Positions 1 through 13,294 of a DNA stretch of 64,000 nucleotides are shown here, in pieces. Source of the DNA: Candidatus Methylomirabilota bacterium (GTDB lineage Bacteria; Methylomirabilota; Methylomirabilia; Rokubacteriales; CSP1-6); NCBI GenBank assembly GCA_035764725.1, contig DASTYT010000130.1, positions 364 through 64,363 on the forward strand, read 5' to 3'. Position 1 is the first letter of the stretch. Every line of letters starts with the position of its first letter. The position numbers were made by a program, and so were the translations under genes. The notes beneath the pieces were generated by a model. That model was given only the letters and a program-made list of their open reading frames with translations, ran no database searches and was not told where the DNA came from.

Positions 1-302
1 TCCACGTCGTTGAACTGGCGTCCGCGCGCCGCCGGCAGATCGGCGTGGAGATAGGCGGCCCCCTTGAGGAGCACGACGGGCAGCGGGGCGAGGACGCGGC
101 GGAGCCGCGTGACCTCCCAGCGGATCAGGCGATGGTGCAGCTCGACATCGGTGCGCGCCGCTTCCAGCCGCGTGCGCACGCGTAACGGAGCTCCCGCCAG
201 CACGCCGGCGTCGCGCGCGAGGGCCTCGAGCCGGGCCAGGAGACTGGCGTGGCGCGCCTGACGCAGGAGCACATCCCACTCCGCGGGGACGAGGCGCGCC
301 AT
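1..302 (-). CDS. nucleotidyltransferase-family protein ('uncharacterised nucleotidyltransferase' type), N-terminal ~100 aa only; gene runs off the window start
   Basis: Reverse translation from ATG (302-300) gives MARLVPAEWDVLLRQARHASLLARLEALARDAGVL...PVVLLKGAAYLHADLP. This is the N-terminal pattern I associate with the nucleotidyltransferase family that accompanies HprK-like kinase/PqqD pairs. An in-frame GTG at 350 is an alternative start. It is absent from the ORF track because it is truncated by the window edge. Confidence 0.5.
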   Translation of the reverse strand, partial: MARLVPAEWDVLLRQARHASLLARLEALARDAGVLAGAPLRVRTRLEAARTDVELHHRLIRWEVTRLRRVLAPLPVVLLKGAAYLHADLPAARGRQFNDV

Positions 303-393
303 CGACGTGGGCTCGCGTAGCAGGCGCGCCAGGGAGGCGGCGTCCGTCACGGGAGCGGACGGGCTCGCGACCGGCTACGGCGACGCGGAAAGG

Positions 394-1323
394 TCAGGCG
401 GTGGGCGTCGGAGGCGGCAGCGCGCCGAGGAGGCCCAGGGCATCGTCCAGGCTGGAGTACCTGAACTCGTAGGCGTCGCACTCGTCAATCATACGCGACA
501 GCGCGCGGAAGCCCCGAATCCCCAGCGACGGGTAGTTGAACGAGCAGTCGGCGAGCCGAAAGAACGCGCGGGCCTTCGGGACGCGGGTGAGCGACGGCGC
601 CGCCCCGGGGGCGAACACGGGGAACACGAGCCAGGCCGGCATCGCGGCCTCGTGCGCCTGCCGCACACTGTCCGCGGGCGGGCGGAGATGAGCCACCGTC
701 CCTTTGTTGGTGTTCGGGACCGGCGTGCTCATGTGGGCATCGGGCGCCCATCGGCGTATCAGCTCGATGGAGGTGTTCTTCAGGCTGATCGGCCGGGGCC
801 AGGGATCCAACGCGCCATCCCCGGGGCGGATCAGCGCGAACTCGTCCGAGAGGAGGCGCCACCCGCGCAGCGCCAGCCCCGCGCAGAGCGTGCTCTTCCC
901 CGCGCCGGAGACACCGGGCAGCACGAGGGCACGGCCGTCCCGCTCCAGCACCGCGGCATGGATCATCACGTACTGGTTCGCGCGCGTCGCCGCACACCAG
1001 TTGATGCTCCACTCGAGCATCGGCACCGCCATGTCGAGGGGCAAGGGCTCGAAGGGGCGATCCTCGTCGAGGATCACCGTGGCCTGCCGGCGCCACCAGC
1101 GCCGCATCCCGAGCGGACCGGAAGGACTCAGCACCACCACGTGGAAGTCCGCCAGCCCGCCCCCTTCGTCCAGGGGATAGTCGCGGTACAGGCCGTGCAC
1201 CTCGTCGACCAGGGCTGGGATGGGTGTCTCGATGCGCACGACGAAGGGGCCGGTGTCGAGGTCGAGCCCGCGACGCTCGAGGCGGGCGGCGAGGTCGCGG
1301 CGGTCGAGCTCCCCCAGCCTCAC
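394..1323 (-). CDS. HprK-related kinase (HPr kinase/phosphorylase-like P-loop protein, 'HprK-related kinase A' type)
   Basis: 309-aa ORF. Its GTG start overlaps the upstream stop (GTGA at 1320-1323). It has the P-loop LPGVSGAGKSTLCAGL in an HPr-kinase C-terminal-domain-like context. It is directly coupled to a PqqD-like ORF. Confidence 0.8.
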   Translation of the reverse strand: MRLGELDRRDLAARLERRGLDLDTGPFVVRIETPIPALVDEVHGLYRDYPLDEGGGLADFHVVVLSPSGPLGMRRWWRRQATVILDEDRPFEPLPLDMAVPMLEWSINWCAATRANQYVMIHAAVLERDGRALVLPGVSGAGKSTLCAGLALRGWRLLSDEFALIRPGDGALDPWPRPISLKNTSIELIRRWAPDAHMSTPVPNTNKGTVAHLRPPADSVRQAHEAAMPAWLVFPVFAPGAAPSLTRVPKARAFFRLADCSFNYPSLGIRGFRALSRMIDECDAYEFRYSSLDDALGLLGALPPPTPTA

Positions 1324-1637
1324 GCGGGAACCTCCTCGATCAGGCCGATCTCGCGGAATCGCTCGATCACCGCGCGCACATGCCCTTCGATTTCGGGGGC
1401 GGGGTCGGGCCCCAGGCGCGAGCCCACCCGTGCGACCAGGGAGGGCACGTCGGCGGGAAACTCCTCGAGCGCCTTCAGGATCTCGGCGGACAGGGCGTCG
1501 AGCAGATGCGTGTCGCCCGAGCCTTCATCGAAGACGACGAACTCATCGTCCCAGGACTTCCAGTGAAGGCGGGAGCCCTCGGAGAGCTCCCAGCGGACGG
1601 AGGCGGCGAGCGGCTCGGCTACGGCCCCTGGCTCCCG
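1320..1637 (-). CDS. PqqD-family peptide chaperone (RRE-like); start codon unresolved
   Basis: Open frame of 105 codons ending in TGA at 1320-1322: ..RWELSEGSRLHWKSWDDEFVVFDEGSGDTHLLDALSAEILKALEEFPADVPSLVARVGSRLG..VRAVIERFREIGLIEEVPA. This is the PqqD signature (W..WD.E.VVFD..SG.TH.L). There is no ATG/GTG/TTG upstream of the conserved part. The 5' limit of the frame is an in-frame TAA at 1638-1640. Confidence 0.6.
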   Translation of the reverse strand, partial: REPGAVAEPLAASVRWELSEGSRLHWKSWDDEFVVFDEGSGDTHLLDALSAEILKALEEFPADVPSLVARVGSRLGPDPAPEIEGHVRAVIERFREIGLIEEVPA

Positions 1638-1856
1638 TTACTTTGTCCGGGCGGCAGCGGGCTGCTGCGACATGTTGTGGGACAGCGAGCTACTGTTGGT
1701 CTCGGGACCTGCGAAGGCGGCCCGCGCCTTGATCGACATGATGATGGGGGCGGCGGCAGCGGCTGCCTTCAGGACACGTCGCCGACTGGGCGACTGCGCG
1801 ACGTCTTCCGCGCCTTTGCCCTGCGTCTCGTCCGGTCCTGGCTTGTTCTCGCTCAT
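1638..1856 (-). CDS. 72-aa peptide with twin-arginine (Tat-like) N-terminal region and a short Ser-rich C-terminal part; candidate substrate peptide
   Basis: ATG at 1856-1854 is preceded by GAGGAG about 8 nt upstream. Translation: MSENKPGPDETQGKGAEDVAQSPSRRRVLKAAAAAAPIIMSIKARAAFA/GPETNSSSLSHNMSQQPAAARTK. It has an SRRRVLK motif, a hydrophobic stretch and an AFA site. It ends with TAA, a stop codon I expect to be uncommon at this GC content. The 112-aa ORF-track version (to 1976) is probably a 5' over-extension. Confidence 0.45.
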   Translation of the reverse strand: MSENKPGPDETQGKGAEDVAQSPSRRRVLKAAAAAAPIIMSIKARAAFAGPETNSSSLSHNMSQQPAAARTK

Positions 1857-2175
1857 CGGTCGGGCTCCTCGGTCCTCATTGGGGATCGACCCCGGGATCG
1901 TGCCAGTTACACTACTCCCGCGGCATCCGGGATAAGTGCACGTTCCGTGCTCAGATTGGCTTTTGTTACTTTTCAACTACTTAAGGCCATGCACCGGCTG
2001 CACGCCCTACGAAAAGTCAAGCTTCCCGACACTTCCGCGTGGCAAATCTTCCCTAACGGCAGCGGGCCGGGGTAGGTCCTCAGGAGGCGCCAGCGAAGCT
2101 CTTCCCTTGCCCTCCCGATATCTGCTATTCCATACTCCTACTGCCCGGGTCAACTCCGCAGGGCTGGAGGACACC

Positions 2176-3277: not shown

Positions 3278-4762
3278 TTGTTCCTGGCTGAGCGTATGAC
3301 CGGGGGTGACCGCGTGGCCGTGCGCATGCTGGAAGGCGGCGGGAACGGCCGCGACGATTCCCTGCTCGAGTCGCTCCGCGAGCACGTGGTGCGGGTCGGC
3401 GCGCTGAGCGCGCGGTGCCCGGCGATCGCGTCCCTCCACGAATGTGGCCGCGCCGAGGGCGGCGGCATCTACCTGGCGCTCGAGCATCCCGAGGCGCCGA
3501 CGCTGGCCGAGGTGCTCCAGCGCGAGGGGCAGCTCGATCCCAATCGTGCGGTGCGGCTCACTGTGCGCGTCGCCGAGGCGCTCGAGTCCGCGCACATGCT
3601 GGGGATCGCGCACGGCGGGCTCATGCCCCGGAACATCGTCCTGGGCGAGAACGAGTCGGTGAAGCTCACCGAGTTCGGCGTGGACTGGCTGCGTACGCGC
3701 GCCCGCGGCGCCGACGTCAACGGTGCGGGGGCCTCCCCTTATCTCGCCCCCGAGCAGCGGGCTTCGGGCGAGGCCTCCCCGCAGGCCGACGTCTACGCCG
3801 TCGGCGCCATCCTCTACGAGACCCTCGCCGGCCGGCCGCCGGAGCTGCAGTCGCCGTCGCGGCGCCGGGCCTCGATCCAGCCGCTCCGCAAGCTGCGTCC
3901 GGACGTCTCGCCCTCGCTCGAGCACGTCGTCACGCGCGCGCTCGAGCCCGATCCCGAACGCCGCTACCGAGACATGACCGATCTCTTCAACGAGCTCTGG
4001 AGCGAGATCAGCCCGTTCTCGGGCTCGAAGCCGGCCGGGCACGGTGCGCGAGTGCGTCGCGCGGACGGGAAGCGGACGCGTCTGATCGCGGTGGGAATCG
4101 TGGTCGGCGCCATCGCGGCCATCGCGCTCCTCAGCCGGCTGCTCGTGGCCGGGCCGCCCGCGCTCGTGTCGCCCGCGCGTCAGCCGGCGCCGCTGCCCGA
4201 GGTCGCCTCGCCCGCGCCGACGGCGCCGGCGCCTTCGATCGTGAGCGAGCCCGAACGTGTAGCCCCCGAGGCGCCGCCGCCCGCCGTGGCTACAACACCG
4301 CCCGCCATGGTCACGCCGCCGCCGCCCGTGGTCACGCCGCCGCCCGTGGTCACGCCGCCGCCCACCGTGGTCACGCCACCCCCCGTGGTCACGCCACCCC
4401 CCGTGGTCACGCCGCCGTCGCGCGTGGCTGCGCCAACGCCCGCGGTCACGCCGCCGCCCCCAGTGGTCGCGGCGCCGCGGCCCGAGGCGGTCCCGCCACC
4501 CCCGTCTTCACGCCCCGTGGCCCCGCGACCCACGCCGCCGGTGGCCCGCTCGGTCGTCGAGGCACCACGGCCGGCACCGCCTGCCTCTCAACAGGAGAAG
4601 CCGATCCGACCCGCGCCGCGCCCCGCGGAGACGCCGTCGCCCCCCGTCCCCGCCCCTGCCGTAGCGCTTCCCACCGCGCCTGCGGGTGCGCGTAACGCCG
4701 GCGAGGACGGTGGCGCCATCATCGACTGGCTCCTGAAGGAAAGCTCGAGCACGCGGCGCTAG
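3278..4762 (+). CDS. membrane-anchored Ser/Thr-kinase-like pseudokinase with a Pro-rich extracytoplasmic tail
   Basis: Hanks-type kinase fold signatures are retained (SPYLAPEQ, DVYAVGAILYETLAGRPP, DPERRY). Catalytic residues are replaced: VAIK->VAVR (R16), HRDLKPxN->HGGLMPRN (112-119), DFG->EFG (132-134). No Gly-rich loop is present. One TM segment (LIAVGIVVGAIAAIALLSRLLVAG) is followed by about 200 aa of Pro/Ala/Val-rich sequence. The start is TTG. Confidence 0.75.
   Translation: MFLAERMTGGDRVAVRMLEGGGNGRDDSLLESLREHVVRVGALSARCPAIASLHECGRAEGGGIYLALEHPEAPTLAEVLQREGQLDPNRAVRLTVRVAEALESAHMLGIAHGGLMPRNIVLGENESVKLTEFGVDWLRTRARGADVNGAGASPYLAPEQRASGEASPQADVYAVGAILYETLAGRPPELQSPSRRRASIQPLRKLRPDVSPSLEHVVTRALEPDPERRYRDMTDLFNELWSEISPFSGSKPAGHGARVRRADGKRTRLIAVGIVVGAIAAIALLSRLLVAGPPALVSPARQPAPLPEVASPAPTAPAPSIVSEPERVAPEAPPPAVATTPPAMVTPPPPVVTPPPVVTPPPTVVTPPPVVTPPPVVTPPSRVAAPTPAVTPPPPVVAAPRPEAVPPPPSSRPVAPRPTPPVARSVVEAPRPAPPASQQEKPIRPAPRPAETPSPPVPAPAVALPTAPAGARNAGEDGGAIIDWLLKESSSTRR
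4307..4475 (+). repeat. in-frame tandem repeat (18-21 nt units, GTGGTCACGCCGCCGCCC-like) encoding (V)VTPPP(P) units
   Basis: Read directly from the sequence: atggtcacgccgccgccgcccgtg gtcacgccgccgcccgtg gtcacgccgccgcccaccgtg gtcacgccaccccccgtg gtcacgccaccccccgtg gtcacgccgccg... It translates to MVTPPPPVVTPPPVVTPPPTVVTPPPVVTPPPVVTPP. Confidence 0.9.
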
Positions 4763-11448: not shown

Positions 11449-12327
11449 ATGCGCTGGCGAGACATGCGGGGCAGCGGCAACATCGAGGACCGCGAGGGCC
11501 AGGGGCCGGCGCGCGGCGGTCTGGGCGGCGGCATGAAGCTCGGCGGCGCGGGCCTTCTCGCGGTGGTCGTCGTGAGCTTCCTGCTCGGGCTCAATCCGCT
11601 CGACGTCCTCACCGGGCTCCAGGGCGGCGGGCCGCCCCCGATGGACAGTCCCGCGCCGGGCCCGGCTCCGGGCGGCGCCCCGACGGGCGCGCCCGACCCG
11701 ACCAAGGAGTTCGTGGCGCGCGTGCTGGGCGACACCGAGGACACCTGGCGCGCCATCTTCCAGAAGCAAGGCCGCGAGTACGAGGCGCCGCGCCTCGTCC
11801 TTTTCCGCGGCGCCGTCGAGTCCGCGTGCGGCCACGCCAGCGCCGCGGTCGGCCCCTTCTACTGCTCGGGCGATCAACGTGTTTATCTCGACCGCGCGTT
11901 CTTCGAGGAGCTGTCGCAGCGCTTCGGCGCGCCGGGCGAGTTCGCGCGCGCCTACGTGATCGCCCACGAGATCGGGCATCACGTCCAGAACCTCATCGGC
12001 GTCACCGAGAAGGTGGCGTCCCAGCGCGCGCGGGGGGGCCGCGGGAACGCGCTCTCGGTGGCGATGGAGCTCCAGGCCGACTGCCTTGCCGGGGTGTGGG
12101 GGCACTACGCCAAGCGGCGAAACCTGCTGGACCCGGGCGACGTGGAGGCCGGGCTCCAGGCGGCCGCCGCCATCGGCGACGACCGCATCCAGCAGCAGTC
12201 ACGCGGCTACGTGTCCCCCGAGTCCTTCACCCACGGCAGCTCCGAGCAGCGGGTGCGCTGGTTTCGCACGGGGCTGGACTCGGGCGAGGTGCGCCAGTGC
12301 GACACCTTCGCGGCAGCCCGGCGCTGA
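11449..12327 (+). CDS. YpfJ-type neutral zinc metallopeptidase, membrane anchored
   Basis: ATG at 11449 follows GAGGGAGG. MRWRDMRGSGNIEDRR-like N-terminus, one TM segment, and HEIGHHVQN (HExxH). FYCSGDQRVYLD and ELQADCLAGVW are typical of the family. Confidence 0.85.
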   Translation: MRWRDMRGSGNIEDREGQGPARGGLGGGMKLGGAGLLAVVVVSFLLGLNPLDVLTGLQGGGPPPMDSPAPGPAPGGAPTGAPDPTKEFVARVLGDTEDTWRAIFQKQGREYEAPRLVLFRGAVESACGHASAAVGPFYCSGDQRVYLDRAFFEELSQRFGAPGEFARAYVIAHEIGHHVQNLIGVTEKVASQRARGGRGNALSVAMELQADCLAGVWGHYAKRRNLLDPGDVEAGLQAAAAIGDDRIQQQSRGYVSPESFTHGSSEQRVRWFRTGLDSGEVRQCDTFAAARR

Positions 12328-12367
12328 TGGGCGGGCGCTGGAGTATGATCCCGCCAGGGAGGAACCC

Positions 12368-13294
12368 ATGGCGATCTCCGCCGCGCCCCTGACCATCACG
12401 CCCCTGCATCCCTGCCTCGGCGCTCGCGTCGAGGGGGTAGATCTCTCGCGGCCCCTCCCCTCGGAGACGTTCCGGCGTGTCGCCGACGCCTTCGACGAGC
12501 ACTCGGTGCTGGTCTTCCACGACCAGCGGCTCACGGACGCGCAGCAGAAGGCCTTCAGCGAGCAGTGGGGACCGCTCGAGACGACGCTGGTGTCTCCGGG
12601 CAAGGAAGGCCGGCTGGATCCCAAGCTCGTGGATCTTTCCAACGTCGACCCGGACCACGGCAGCGCGCTCATGGACTGGAGCGACCGGCGGATGATGTAT
12701 CAGTCCGGCAATCAGCTCTGGCACACGGACAGCTCCTTCAAGCCAATCCCCGCGCATTCGTCCGCATTGTCCGGCCGGGAGATTCCGCCGGTGGGCGGCG
12801 AGACCGAGTTCGCGAGCATGCGTGTCGCCTACACCGCGCTCTCCCCGGTGGAGCAGGCGCGGCTCGAGGGCAAGGTGGTCGTGCATAGCATCATCTACTC
12901 GCGGAGCCTCATCGCGAAGGACCTGTTCGACCCCGAGCAGGCCCGGGCGCTGCCCGCGGTGCGCCATGCTCTGGTGCGCGCCAATCCCGCCCACGGCCGC
13001 AAGGCCTTCTACATCGGCTCGCACGCCTGGTTCATCGAGGGCATGCCGTACGCGGAGAGCCGGCGGCTCCTGGACGATCTCCTCGCGCTGACCACGGCGC
13101 CCGAGCGTGTCTATCGGCACGTGTGGCGGCAGTGGGACCTCGTCATGTGGGACAACCGCTGCGTGCTCCATCGCGGTCGCCCCTGGGACTCGGCGCGCTA
13201 CCCGCGGATCATGCGCCGCACGACCGTGGCCGGCGATGGTCCCACCGCCGACCCGCCGCTCGCCGATCCCGCGAGCCTGCCCGCCCTCGACTAG
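12368..13294 (+). CDS. TauD/TfdA-family Fe(II)/2-oxoglutarate dioxygenase
   Basis: ATG at 12368 follows GGGAGG. LWHTDSSF (HxD), ..GGETEFAS.., ..WDNRCVLHRGRPW.. motifs. Confidence 0.85.
   Translation: MAISAAPLTITPLHPCLGARVEGVDLSRPLPSETFRRVADAFDEHSVLVFHDQRLTDAQQKAFSEQWGPLETTLVSPGKEGRLDPKLVDLSNVDPDHGSALMDWSDRRMMYQSGNQLWHTDSSFKPIPAHSSALSGREIPPVGGETEFASMRVAYTALSPVEQARLEGKVVVHSIIYSRSLIAKDLFDPEQARALPAVRHALVRANPAHGRKAFYIGSHAWFIEGMPYAESRRLLDDLLALTTAPERVYRHVWRQWDLVMWDNRCVLHRGRPWDSARYPRIMRRTTVAGDGPTADPPLADPASLPALD

What the first reader, a model, noticed from the sequence alone, without database searches (positions are those of the whole stretch)
1..1856. HprK-related kinase, PqqD-like chaperone and nucleotidyltransferase with a candidate substrate peptide encoded directly upstream
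Seen in sequence: on the minus strand the order is a 72-aa peptide gene (1856-1638), a PqqD-like ORF (1637-1320), a P-loop HprK-like kinase (1323-394, GTGA-coupled), and a nucleotidyltransferase-family gene (302 to the window edge).

Established knowledge:
- PqqD-type domains are the RiPP recognition elements that bind precursor peptides.
- HPr-kinase homologues in lasso-peptide clusters (for example the paeninodin kinase) phosphorylate precursor Ser residues.
- The pair is named in public annotation as 'HprK-related kinase A' and 'HPr-rel-A system PqqD family peptide chaperone'. To my knowledge it has no assigned substrate.

Inference: the small ORF is a plausible substrate. It has a good SD and an SRRRVLK twin-arginine-like leader, and its predicted 23-aa remainder GPETNSSSLSHNMSQQPAAARTK contains six Ser and one Thr.

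No lasso cyclase or leader protease is visible in the window. The cluster continues beyond position 1.
Basis: partly seen in the sequence, partly recalled or inferred. Interest (0 to 1): 0.65.

Follow-up and report, generated by a model that had tools for sequence, protein, structure and literature searches.

The report
Candidate substrate peptide of HPr-rel-A system
A 72-residue gene beside an uncharacterised kinase/chaperone/nucleotidyltransferase trio is a short member of a large unannotated protein family that sits in front of that trio wherever I looked, so it is probably the trio's missing substrate.

Summary
The gene order is real: small ORF 1856-1638, PqqD-like region 1637-1320, HprK-related kinase A 1323-394, NTP_transf_5 fragment 302-1, all on the minus strand. 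The source is probably a Rokubacteria MAG.

- The small ORF is present in all 27 related soil or sediment loci that hold upstream DNA.
- Its leader is under strong purifying selection (dN/dS 0.03-0.23).
- A profile built only from proteobacterial proteins encoded just upstream of PqqD finds such a gene in 76 of 80 genomes. It also hits the window's ORF (27 bits, E 2e-6).
- Shared features are an invariant RR, a hydrophobic stretch with S-R-P, a small-x-small site, then two invariant Ser (S55, S59).

The cassette therefore has four parts: RR-leader protein, PqqD, kinase and nucleotidyltransferase. Relatives show no lasso cyclase or protease.

I propose that the chaperone presents the leader, the kinase phosphorylates S55/S59, the nucleotidyltransferase elaborates the phosphate, and the product leaves by Tat. 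None of this is shown biochemically.

Corrections:
- The PqqD ORF has no ATG/GTG/TTG ahead of its domain and lies in frame behind the small ORF's TAA. Its initiation is unexplained.
- The tail has 5 Ser and 2 Thr.
- Tat profile scores are below threshold.

The parts
1638..1856 (-). Small ORF of 72 aa, the candidate precursor or substrate. It is identical to an NCBI nr protein (P0243).
   Evidence: It is conserved in 27 related loci, with whole-ORF dN/dS 0.19-0.54. It scores 27.2 bits (E 1.9e-6) against a profile built only from proteobacterial proteins.
1710..1793 (-). Leader, residues S22-A49: SPSRRRVLKAAAAAAPIIMSIKARAAFA. It holds the twin arginine, a hydrophobic stretch and an A-x-A site.
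   Evidence: dN/dS is 0.03-0.23, far lower than in the tail. RR is invariant in 98 of 98 distinct family members, and the -3/-1 positions are small. Tat profiles are sub-threshold.
1668..1694 (-). Motif S55-S-S-L-S59-H-N-M-S63, the proposed modification sites.
   Evidence: The aligned Ser residues are invariant or nearly so: 93 of 93 and 91 of 92. The third position is Ser in 63 of 92.
1593..1637 (-). 45-nt spacer between the small ORF's TAA and the first conserved PqqD codon (W). GGGAG lies at 1636-1632 and a GCC-GTA element, conserved across the group-A loci (GTC in L091/L092), has its GTA at 1622-1620. No initiation codon is present in any frame.
   Evidence: Metatranscriptome contigs show the same sequence.
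1320..1592 (-). PqqD-family (RRE-type) domain, the HPr-rel-A system peptide chaperone, from W to the TGA stop.
   Evidence: TIGR04353 scores 69.5 bits and Pfam PqqD 32.7 bits. dN/dS of the start-less N-terminal 47 codons is 0.03-0.19. The best natural PDB relative is the lasso RRE TfuB1 (E 0.074).
394..1323 (-). HprK-related kinase A, 309 aa. The P-loop is GVSGAGKST (about 915-889). H122, K143, D160 and E161 are invariant.
   Evidence: TIGR04352 scores 375.1 bits. The AF2 model has pLDDT 91.4 and matches the PEPCK and HprK/P folds. PDB profile hits are HprK.
1..302 (-). N-terminal part of the NTP_transf_5 nucleotidyltransferase, cut by the window edge. It is 340-358 aa in relatives. An alternative GTG start lies at 350.
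   Evidence: Pfam PF14907 scores 54.6 bits. The gene follows the kinase in 109 of the loci fetched up to that call.
1938..1950 (-). Palindrome GCACGgaaCGTGC, 82 nt upstream of the small ORF's ATG. It could be an operator, a promoter element or a 5'-UTR hairpin.
   Evidence: It is invariant in 4 loci whose kinases are 80-93% identical to the window's, while the flanks vary. Function was not tested.
1570..1592 (-). Possible 8-bp RNA hairpin UGGGAGCU...GGCUCCCG at the 5' end of the PqqD coding region.
   Evidence: There is one compensatory change (GAG/TCC to CAG/TGT) between sub-lineages. It could equally reflect protein-level co-variation.

Best explanation
The window holds the 5' four-fifths of a five-gene operon of a probable Rokubacteria genome: small ORF, PqqD-like chaperone, HprK-related kinase A, NTP_transf_5 nucleotidyltransferase, and (beyond position 1) a predicted lipoprotein.

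The first four genes are a minimal version of a widespread, uncharacterised four-gene cassette. Its first gene always encodes a protein with three parts: a conserved RR/hydrophobic leader, a small-x-small site, and a motif with two invariant serines four residues apart.

Proposed mechanism (every step inferred):
1. The cytoplasmic PqqD-type RRE binds the conserved leader.
2. It presents the adjacent S55-x3-S59(-x3-S63) segment to the P-loop kinase, which phosphorylates one or more of these Ser.
3. The nucleotidyltransferase-fold enzyme elaborates the phosphoserine with a nucleotidyl or hexosyl group, as PsmK and PsmN do on a lasso precursor.
4. The modified product is exported by the Tat pathway, which carries substrates that are already folded or finished in the cytoplasm.
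5. Signal peptidase cuts after A-F-A49 and releases a 23-residue decorated peptide.

In most other bacteria the same module heads a 150-280 aa secreted protein, so the chemistry is a protein or peptide Ser modification and not a lasso pathway.
For: Shown by tools:
- Family assignments of PqqD, kinase and nucleotidyltransferase.
- Syntenic relatives show the operon ends with a lipoprotein gene and has no Asn-synthase-like or transglutaminase-like gene within 10 kb.
- The small ORF is conserved in all 27 lineage loci with upstream DNA. Leader dN/dS is 0.03-0.23 against 0.3-1.6 for the tail.
- A proteobacteria-only profile hits an ORF directly upstream of PqqD in 76 of 80 GTDB loci. It hits the window ORF over leader plus Ser motif at 27.2 bits, E 1.9e-6 in 15,215 ORFs.
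- RR is invariant in 98 of 98 members. The two Ser are conserved in 93 of 93 and 91 of 92.
- Three sampled RR-protein hits are each followed by a PqqD-size ORF, a ScmC-family kinase and NTP_transf_5, in unrelated genomic contexts.
- NTP_transf_5 follows the kinase in 109 loci.
- In the long-form model the leader and Ser motif are disordered, and a confident domain follows.
- The kinase keeps the invariant H, P-loop K and D-E and has a PEPCK/HprK-like fold.
- A 5,085-nt metatranscriptome contig spans the operon and ends in the upstream intergenic region.

From the literature:
- HprK homologues PadeK, ThcoK and SyanK phosphorylate Ser of linear lasso precursors.
- PsmK together with the uncharacterised nucleotidyltransferase PsmN gives phospho-hexosyl Ser (PMC9266682, PMC6993621).
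Against: - No biochemical datum exists for any member. A full-text search for the system's names returned no paper.
- Tat profile models are below threshold for the window peptide. They match only 4 of 18 at E<=0.01 and 0 of 54 long forms. Tat export rests on inspection: invariant RR, a hydrophobic stretch and an AxA-like site.
- The conserved Ser are internal, whereas known lasso kinases act on a C-terminal Ser.
- That PsmN belongs to Pfam NTP_transf_5 was not verified here.
- The PqqD-like gene has no recognisable start codon in the window and many relatives, so how much chaperone is made, and in what form, is unknown.
- Adjacency does not prove an enzyme-substrate relation.
Confidence: 0.55

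Rival explanations
1. The small ORF and the PqqD-like region are one gene. Either the TAA is read through, giving a leader-core-RRE fusion that presents its own N-terminal peptide in cis, or the locus is a gene broken by a nonsense mutation.
For: - The two regions are in the same frame, separated by a single stop, in the window and 12 other distinct start-less loci.
- There is no canonical or single-mismatch start codon between the stop and the conserved domain in the window.
- JGI names two 74-aa homologues 'PqqD family protein of HPr-rel-A system'.
Against: - The stop is conserved as TAA or TAG across loci whose kinases are 63-97% identical to the window's, and in four independent sequencing runs including two RNA runs. 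It is therefore neither an error nor a recent lesion.
- In L095/L098, L100, L101-103/L111, L104/105 and L056 the two ORFs are in different frames.
- L104 and L107 have an ordinary ATG for PqqD, and L094/95 have GTG.
- In Proteobacteria the two are plainly separate genes.
- UAA is the least leaky bacterial stop codon (established knowledge).
Confidence: 0.12
2. The RR-leader protein is a secreted protein or peptide that is merely co-regulated with the trio, or acts as a partner or regulator of it. The kinase and nucleotidyltransferase then modify something else, for example a polysaccharide intermediate or another protein of the PEP-CTERM/EPS loci where the cassette often sits.
For: - In Herbaspirillum and related loci the cassette lies among Wzz, Poly_export and PEP-CTERM (PepA) genes.
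- The nucleotidyltransferase fold is common in sugar and antibiotic modification.
- No direct enzyme-substrate evidence exists.
Against: - The four genes travel together into unrelated contexts: next to TAXI and a Ser/Thr kinase, next to hemA/prfA/prmC, and next to cyanophycin synthetase.
- A PqqD-type RRE is a peptide-binding domain.
- The most conserved parts of the first gene are a disordered leader and two Ser, not its folded domain. The window's lineage lacks that domain entirely.
Confidence: 0.2
3. The locus is a fragment of a phosphorylated lasso-peptide gene cluster whose cyclase and protease lie beyond the window.
For: A PqqD-like RRE, an HprK-like kinase and an uncharacterised nucleotidyltransferase next to a small Ser-rich ORF resemble the paeninodin and pseudomycoidin clusters. 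The best natural PDB relative of the PqqD profile is the lasso RRE TfuB1.
Against: - Relatives that extend 10 kb either side show no Asn_synthase or transglutaminase-like gene and no ABC exporter.
- The precursor does not end in Ser.
- The homologous first gene is usually a 150-280 aa protein.
Confidence: 0.02
4. The small ORF is a decaying remnant of the long-form gene and has no function.
For: It aligns only to the first 65 or so positions of the long-form family.
Against: - Its length and start are conserved in the distinct lineage loci examined and in dozens of 71-81 aa database homologues.
- The leader is under strong purifying selection.
- There is no remnant of the C-terminal domain, because only 45 nt separate it from PqqD.
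- A second, unrelated short form exists in L056.
Confidence: 0.03

Closest known systems
HPr-rel-A system of NCBIfam/TIGRFAMs (TIGR04352 HprK-related kinase A with TIGR04353 PqqD family peptide chaperone)
   Same: The window's kinase and PqqD score far above both curated cut-offs. They are adjacent and followed by NTP_transf_5, as in about 100 other loci.
   Different: The named system has no described substrate, and no paper in the searched library mentions it. The RR-leader gene found here upstream of it is unannotated ('hypothetical protein', no Pfam). The window's lineage carries a 72-89 aa short form and an extra lipoprotein gene.
Tailoring set of phosphorylated lasso peptides: PadeK/ThcoK/SyanK kinases, the B1 RRE and the PsmN nucleotidyltransferase (paeninodin, pseudomycoidin)
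   Same: Both pair an HprK-like P-loop kinase with a PqqD-like RRE and an uncharacterised nucleotidyltransferase beside a small precursor gene. The lasso kinases act on the linear precursor's Ser (PMC9266682, PMC6993621).
   Different: This locus has no lasso cyclase, B2 protease or ABC exporter. The conserved Ser are internal (S-x3-S), not C-terminal. The leader is RR/hydrophobic and signal-peptide-like. The substrate is often a whole protein.
SynChlorMet cassette protein ScmC (TIGR04249; Pfam PF27840)
   Same: The precomputed Pfam hit of all kinase homologues is PF27840. There is a weak TIGR04249 match (29 bits).
   Different: The score is far below the ScmC cut-off of 125. No radical-SAM/SPASM partners are present.
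HPr kinase/phosphorylase (HprK/P)
   Same: Both have the P-loop, the preceding His and the following acidic pair. Both have a PEPCK-like fold.
   Different: TIGR00679 scores 16.4 bits against a cut-off of 240. The N-terminal domain differs, and there is no HPr or PTS context.
Tat signal-peptide-binding chaperones (TorD, DmsD, NapD)
   Same: This is a functional analogy only. Those are small cytoplasmic proteins that hold a twin-arginine leader until the substrate is finished.
   Different: The fold is unrelated. Binding of the leader by the PqqD-like protein, and Tat export itself, are both untested.

Membership tests
HPr-rel-A system (NCBIfam) | Kinase scores above the TIGR04352 cut-off | tested here: met
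   375.1 bits against a cut-off of 200, covering profile positions 2-278 of 280.
HPr-rel-A system (NCBIfam) | PqqD-family protein scores above the TIGR04353 cut-off and is adjacent to the kinase | tested here: met
   69.5 bits against a cut-off of 35, over the full 74-position profile. Its stop overlaps the kinase start as GTGA. Caveat: no canonical start codon lies upstream of the domain.
HPr-rel-A system (NCBIfam) | NTP_transf_5 gene directly downstream of the kinase (observed here as a regular companion) | tested here: met
   Pfam PF14907 scores 54.6 bits in the window. tblastn finds it after the kinase in 109 loci.
RR-leader protein family (defined here; unannotated) | Invariant RR, a hydrophobic stretch with S-R-P, a small-x-small site, then S-x3-S, encoded directly upstream of PqqD | tested here: met
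   The window ORF scores 27.2 bits (E 1.9e-6) against a profile built without its lineage, aligned over leader plus Ser motif. R25, R26, S55 and S59 are invariant.
Lasso peptide gene cluster | Asn-synthetase-like macrolactam synthetase (C protein) | tested here: not met
   No such Pfam family is recorded among called genes within 10 kb on either side in the syntenic loci L002 and L005, or in L001.
Lasso peptide gene cluster | Transglutaminase-like leader protease (B2) | tested here: not met
   Absent from the same gene lists.
Lasso peptide gene cluster (phosphorylated class) | Precursor ends in the Ser that is phosphorylated | tested here: not met
   The window peptide ends ...ARTK. Relatives end in K, G, Q, T or A.
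RiPP (general) | Short ribosomal precursor with a conserved leader and a more variable core, next to an RRE-containing protein | tested here: met
   Leader dN/dS is 0.03-0.23 against 0.3-1.6 for the tail. The PqqD domain lies 45 nt downstream.
RiPP (general) | Demonstrated post-translational modification and leader removal | not testable with these tools
   This needs expression and mass spectrometry.
Tat (twin-arginine) substrates | S/T-R-R-x-F-L-K-type motif, moderately hydrophobic h-region, A-x-A cleavage site | tested here: met
   By inspection: S24-R-R-R-V-L-K30, A31-I42, A47-F-A49. RR is found in 98 of 98 members and the -3/-1 positions are small.
Tat (twin-arginine) substrates | Score above the curated thresholds of the Tat signal profiles | tested here: not met
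   TIGR01409 gives 15.9 against 16.7 and Pfam PF10518 gives 18.4 against 22.7. Only 4 of 18 members match at E<=0.01, and 0 of 54 long forms match at E<=0.1.
Tat (twin-arginine) substrates | Tat-dependent export | not testable with these tools
   No signal-peptide predictor or experiment was available.
HPr kinase/phosphorylase proper | Score above the TIGR00679 cut-off | tested here: not met
   16.4 bits against 240. Only the P-loop region aligns to PDB HprK chains (E 0.005).

The most novel reading that the evidence does not exclude
The HPr-rel-A cassette is a new, very widespread class of leader-guided Ser modification. About 3,000 substrate clusters at 50% identity match the family profile.

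In this reading a PqqD-type RRE recognises a twin-arginine export leader, and an HprK-like kinase plus a nucleotidyltransferase decorate two invariant Ser before Tat export. The Rokubacteria version would yield a free 23-residue decorated peptide, making it a 'Tat-leader RiPP'.

In the window's lineage the chaperone would in addition be made without any canonical start codon. This could happen by read-through of the precursor's stop, giving a precursor-RRE fusion, or by another non-standard initiation route.
Probability: 0.25. Interest if true: 0.85.

Novelty: new variant of a known kind. Interest (0 to 1): 0.7.

Why it matters
The kinase and PqqD families have carried names in public annotation for years. 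They occur in thousands of genomes, often inside exopolysaccharide and floc-formation loci, yet have no known substrate or product.

This work gives the system a concrete, conserved candidate substrate with two invariant serines. In this lineage the substrate is only 72 residues long and lacks the extra domain. That turns an orphan annotation into a four-gene experiment: co-express the genes and look for the mass shift.

If the leader is a true Tat signal read by an RRE, it would link RiPP-style leader recognition to Tat export, a combination I do not know to have been described.

The start-less but strongly constrained PqqD gene is a separate puzzle about translation initiation or read-through.

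Tried and rejected
1. An exact look-up of the window's kinase found no contig. The exact small-ORF look-up found only contigs of about 1.2 kb or less. The window's own contig could therefore not be extended, and relatives with 93-97% kinase identity were used instead.
2. The GTDB scan returned no close relative of the window's lineage; the best kinase identity was 55%.
3. Literature searches for the system names and for PF14907 gave nothing useful. That PsmN belongs to NTP_transf_5 remains unverified.
4. Pfam and NCBIfam scans of the long-form RR proteins and of the downstream lipoprotein found no family.
5. A Foldseek search of the confident long-form C-terminal domain found no PDB match; the best E-value was 4.2.
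6. The Rfam scan and the promoter/terminator scan of 1-2400 gave only chance-level hits.
7. I searched for a PqqD start codon among canonical codons, single-mismatch codons, other frames and RNA-level variants. None explains all loci.
8. An RNA structure downstream of the stop was sought. Only a hairpin inside the coding region appeared, with one possibly compensatory change. This is not enough to claim function.
9. I did not try folding a precursor-PqqD fusion or complex.
Full report
**What is in the sequence**

The minus strand of window 1-1856 carries four elements.
- An ATG-initiated 72-codon ORF lies at 1856-1638. GAGGAG sits 8 nt upstream, and the stop is TAA at 1640-1638.
- An open stretch at 1637-1320 encodes a PqqD-family domain.
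- A 309-codon ORF lies at 1323-394. Its GTG overlaps the preceding TGA.
- The first 100-116 codons of a further gene run off position 1.

Curated profiles confirm three family assignments.
- The PqqD region scores 69.5 bits against TIGR04353, 'HPr-rel-A system PqqD family peptide chaperone' (cut-off 35).
- The kinase scores 375.1 bits against TIGR04352, 'HprK-related kinase A' (cut-off 200).
- The cut gene scores 54.6 bits against Pfam NTP_transf_5.

The kinase alignment keeps an invariant His, the P-loop Lys and an Asp-Glu pair. Its AlphaFold model has pLDDT 91.4. The model matches ATP-dependent PEP carboxykinases best and HprK/P next. PDB profile hits are HprK chains. A CoA-transferase elsewhere in the window is 86-87% identical to proteins of Candidatus Rokubacteria/Rokuibacteriota MAGs, so that is the probable source.

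**Corrections to the observation**

The 'PqqD ORF 1637-1320' has no initiation codon.
- It begins at CGG directly after the small ORF's TAA and is in the same frame.
- The first ATG, GTG or TTG is the GTG at 1448, which would delete 35 residues of the 74-position domain.
- The spacer has no start codon in any frame, and no in-frame single-mismatch codon either.
- The 47 codons upstream of that GTG nevertheless have dN/dS of 0.03-0.19 against ten relatives, so they are translated.

Two smaller points also need correcting. The tail has 5 Ser and 2 Thr. The twin-arginine profile scores are just below threshold.

**Extending past position 1**

The window's own contig (71,219 bp) could not be retrieved. 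Loci whose kinases are 63-97% identical to the window's were retrieved instead.

All show the same order. A TAXI-type solute receptor gene is divergent. Then follow the small ORF, PqqD, the kinase, NTP_transf_5 (340-358 aa) and a gene for a 281-349 aa protein with a lipoprotein-like signal. That last gene overlaps the nucleotidyltransferase stop by 4 nt in L001 and L005, and it is present in 21 lineage loci but in no proteobacterial locus.

No asparagine-synthetase-like cyclase, transglutaminase-like protease or ABC exporter is recorded within 10 kb. This is not a lasso cluster.

A 5,085-nt contig from a sediment metatranscriptome covers window 1-2071 and 3 kb beyond position 1. It ends in the divergent intergenic region, which is consistent with one operon mRNA, although DNA carry-over cannot be excluded.

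Within the lineage, every locus with upstream DNA has the small ORF.
- Its consensus is M-x-E-x-K-P, then a variable acidic stretch, then SPSRRR[AV]LKAALAAxPIIMSIK[AS]RPAFA.
- A 20-30 residue tail follows, containing [ST]-x-x-L-S-x-N-[LM]-S.
- Substitutions are mainly at third codon positions.
- dN/dS is 0.03-0.23 in the leader and 0.3-1.6 in the tail. A conserved leader with a variable core is the usual pattern of RiPP precursors and the opposite of ordinary signal peptides.

Outside the lineage, I collected 80 loci from GTDB genomes, mostly Betaproteobacteria and Gammaproteobacteria, plus a Malonomonas, a Stellaceae and MAGs labelled Planctomycetaceae and Terriglobales.
- The ORF directly upstream of PqqD there is usually a 150-280 aa protein. 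Its typical opening is '...SRRRFTKSGLAASGVLLTLASRPVLG..C.SPSG.LSGN.S.HG...'.
- A profile built from 24 of these proteins hits an ORF in that position in 76 of the 80 loci. One of the four misses has no upstream DNA. Another has an RR-containing ORF that the profile does not reach.
- The same profile hits all lineage small ORFs at 22-40 bits.
- The window's ORF scores 27.2 bits, E 1.9e-6 among 15,215 ORFs. The alignment runs from the acidic N-region through RR and the hydrophobic stretch to S55-S63.
- Across 98 distinct members RR is invariant. The two Ser are 93 of 93 and 91 of 92, and the third is Ser in 63 of 92. The positions that would be -3 and -1 of a signal-peptidase site are A/V/G and A/G.

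The reverse association also holds. Three RR-family proteins sampled from the hits of a family-profile search are each followed by a PqqD-size ORF, a ScmC-family kinase and NTP_transf_5. One lies beside hemA/prfA/prmC and another beside cyanophycin synthetase genes.

The family is large. It has 3,036 representative clusters at 50% identity with E<=0.001. Every source name shown for a long form is 'hypothetical protein', and none of the listed hits has a Pfam domain; two 74-aa short forms carry a probably mistaken JGI name, 'PqqD family protein of HPr-rel-A system'.

In an AlphaFold model of a long form, the first 67 residues (leader and Ser motif) are disordered. The C-terminal 120 residues fold confidently (pLDDT above 90) into a domain with no PDB match. 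The window's lineage has lost or never had that domain. A second short form of 67 aa occurs in locus L056.

**Mechanism**

Shown here: a four-gene cassette that moves as a unit, and a first gene whose most constrained parts are a disordered leader and two Ser.

From the literature:
- PqqD-type domains bind precursor leaders.
- HprK homologues PadeK, ThcoK and SyanK phosphorylate Ser of linear lasso precursors.
- PsmK plus the uncharacterised nucleotidyltransferase PsmN produce a phospho-hexosyl Ser.

The PqqD profile's best natural PDB relative is the lasso RRE TfuB1, at E 0.074.

Inferred:
1. The chaperone binds the leader.
2. The kinase phosphorylates S55 and/or S59, and perhaps S63.
3. The nucleotidyltransferase extends the phosphate.

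The invariant RR, the hydrophobic segment, the small-x-small site and the conserved Cys pair of the long forms together suggest Tat export and cleavage after A49, which would release a 23-residue decorated peptide. I put this export step at about 0.6, because the Tat profiles do not reach threshold.

**The unexplained start of PqqD**

Relatives L104 and L107 have an ATG eight codons before the conserved Trp, and L094/95 have a GTG thirteen codons before it. Proteobacterial PqqD proteins start 0-9 residues before that Trp.

The start-less loci are these:
- The window and ten other distinct loci have GCC-GT(A/C)-CCC behind an SD-like GGAG/GAGG.
- L097/99 have GTT, produced by a 3-nt deletion within GTG-ATT.
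- L100 has ATT.
- L101-103/111 have nothing.
- The unrelated short-form locus L056 also has nothing.

In 13 distinct start-less loci the two ORFs share a frame with one stop between them. A read-through fusion is therefore conceivable. It cannot be general, because in L100, L101-103/L111 and L056 the two ORFs lie in different frames.

RNA-derived contigs show no variant at the stop or in the spacer. A possible 8-bp hairpin at the first PqqD codons shows one compensatory change. It could equally reflect co-variation within a beta-hairpin of the protein. I leave this open.

**Comparison and verdict**

The locus is a member of the annotated but uncharacterised HPr-rel-A system. It resembles the tailoring set of phosphorylated lasso peptides but fails the defining lasso features.

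New findings:
- A conserved fourth component, which is the probable substrate.
- The window's lineage carries a minimal, peptide-sized version of it.

It remains a genomic inference until a mass shift is seen.

Noticed in passing
window 1320-1637 (minus); also L001, L002, L005, L086, L087, L091-L093, L097, L099-L103, L106, L109, L111, L056: The PqqD-like coding region has no canonical start codon upstream of its domain in many independent assemblies, yet it is under strong purifying selection. In the window it lies in frame behind the small ORF's TAA.
   Followed up: partly
window 1938-1950 (minus strand): A perfect palindrome GCACGgaaCGTGC lies 82 nt upstream of the small ORF's ATG. It contains GGAAC and is invariant in four loci whose flanks vary. 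It could be an operator, an ECF-type -35 element or a 5'-UTR hairpin.
   Followed up: no
window 1570-1592 (minus): The first PqqD codons (TGG GAG CTC ... GGC TCC CG) can form an 8-bp hairpin. A sub-lineage has CAG...TGT, which keeps the pairing through two amino-acid changes (E to Q, S to C).
   Followed up: partly
window 1-2071 and about 3 kb beyond position 1 (run X8): A 5,085-nt contig from a sediment metatranscriptome covers the whole operon and ends at 2071 in the divergent intergenic region. This suggests a polycistronic transcript with a 5' UTR of about 215 nt.
   Followed up: partly
L001 5239-6288; L002 about 12107-13075; L005 12038-13072: A 281-349 aa protein with a lipoprotein-type signal (..VAGAC) and no Pfam or NCBIfam match is translationally coupled to the nucleotidyltransferase gene. 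It occurs only in the window's lineage, in 21 loci.
   Followed up: partly
P0164 and 53 homologues (alignment A4), e.g. L112 7089-7715: The C-terminal ~120 residues of the long-form RR proteins give a confident AlphaFold model (pLDDT above 90). The model has no Foldseek match in the PDB, and the sequence has no Pfam family, so this may be an undescribed domain. One representative (P0388, 808 aa) carries six stretches matching it.
   Followed up: partly
P0130 and P0241 (74-aa homologues of the small ORF): JGI names these peptides 'PqqD family protein of HPr-rel-A system' although they contain no PqqD domain. The name was probably transferred from a gene model that spanned the in-frame stop.
   Followed up: no
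L112 and L113 (Herbaspirillum sp. SJZ107 and a related metagenome contig): In these Betaproteobacteria the cassette lies inside a PEP-CTERM/exopolysaccharide locus with Wzz, Poly_export and the flocculation protein PepA. ThiF-like, nitroreductase-like and FeeM-like genes lie on the opposite strand.
   Followed up: partly
L056 5493-5696 (MAG labelled Planctomycetaceae): A second, unrelated short form of 67 aa (RHRRRIIKRAALLGVPIILTLHGTAFA..TTSGALSGSVS) precedes a PqqD region that also lacks a canonical start and lies in a different frame.
   Followed up: partly
window 3278-4762 (plus): A Ser/Thr protein kinase gene with a long proline-rich (PPVVTPP-type) repeat tail lies next to the divergent TAXI gene. 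The pair is syntenic in L002 and L005.
   Followed up: no
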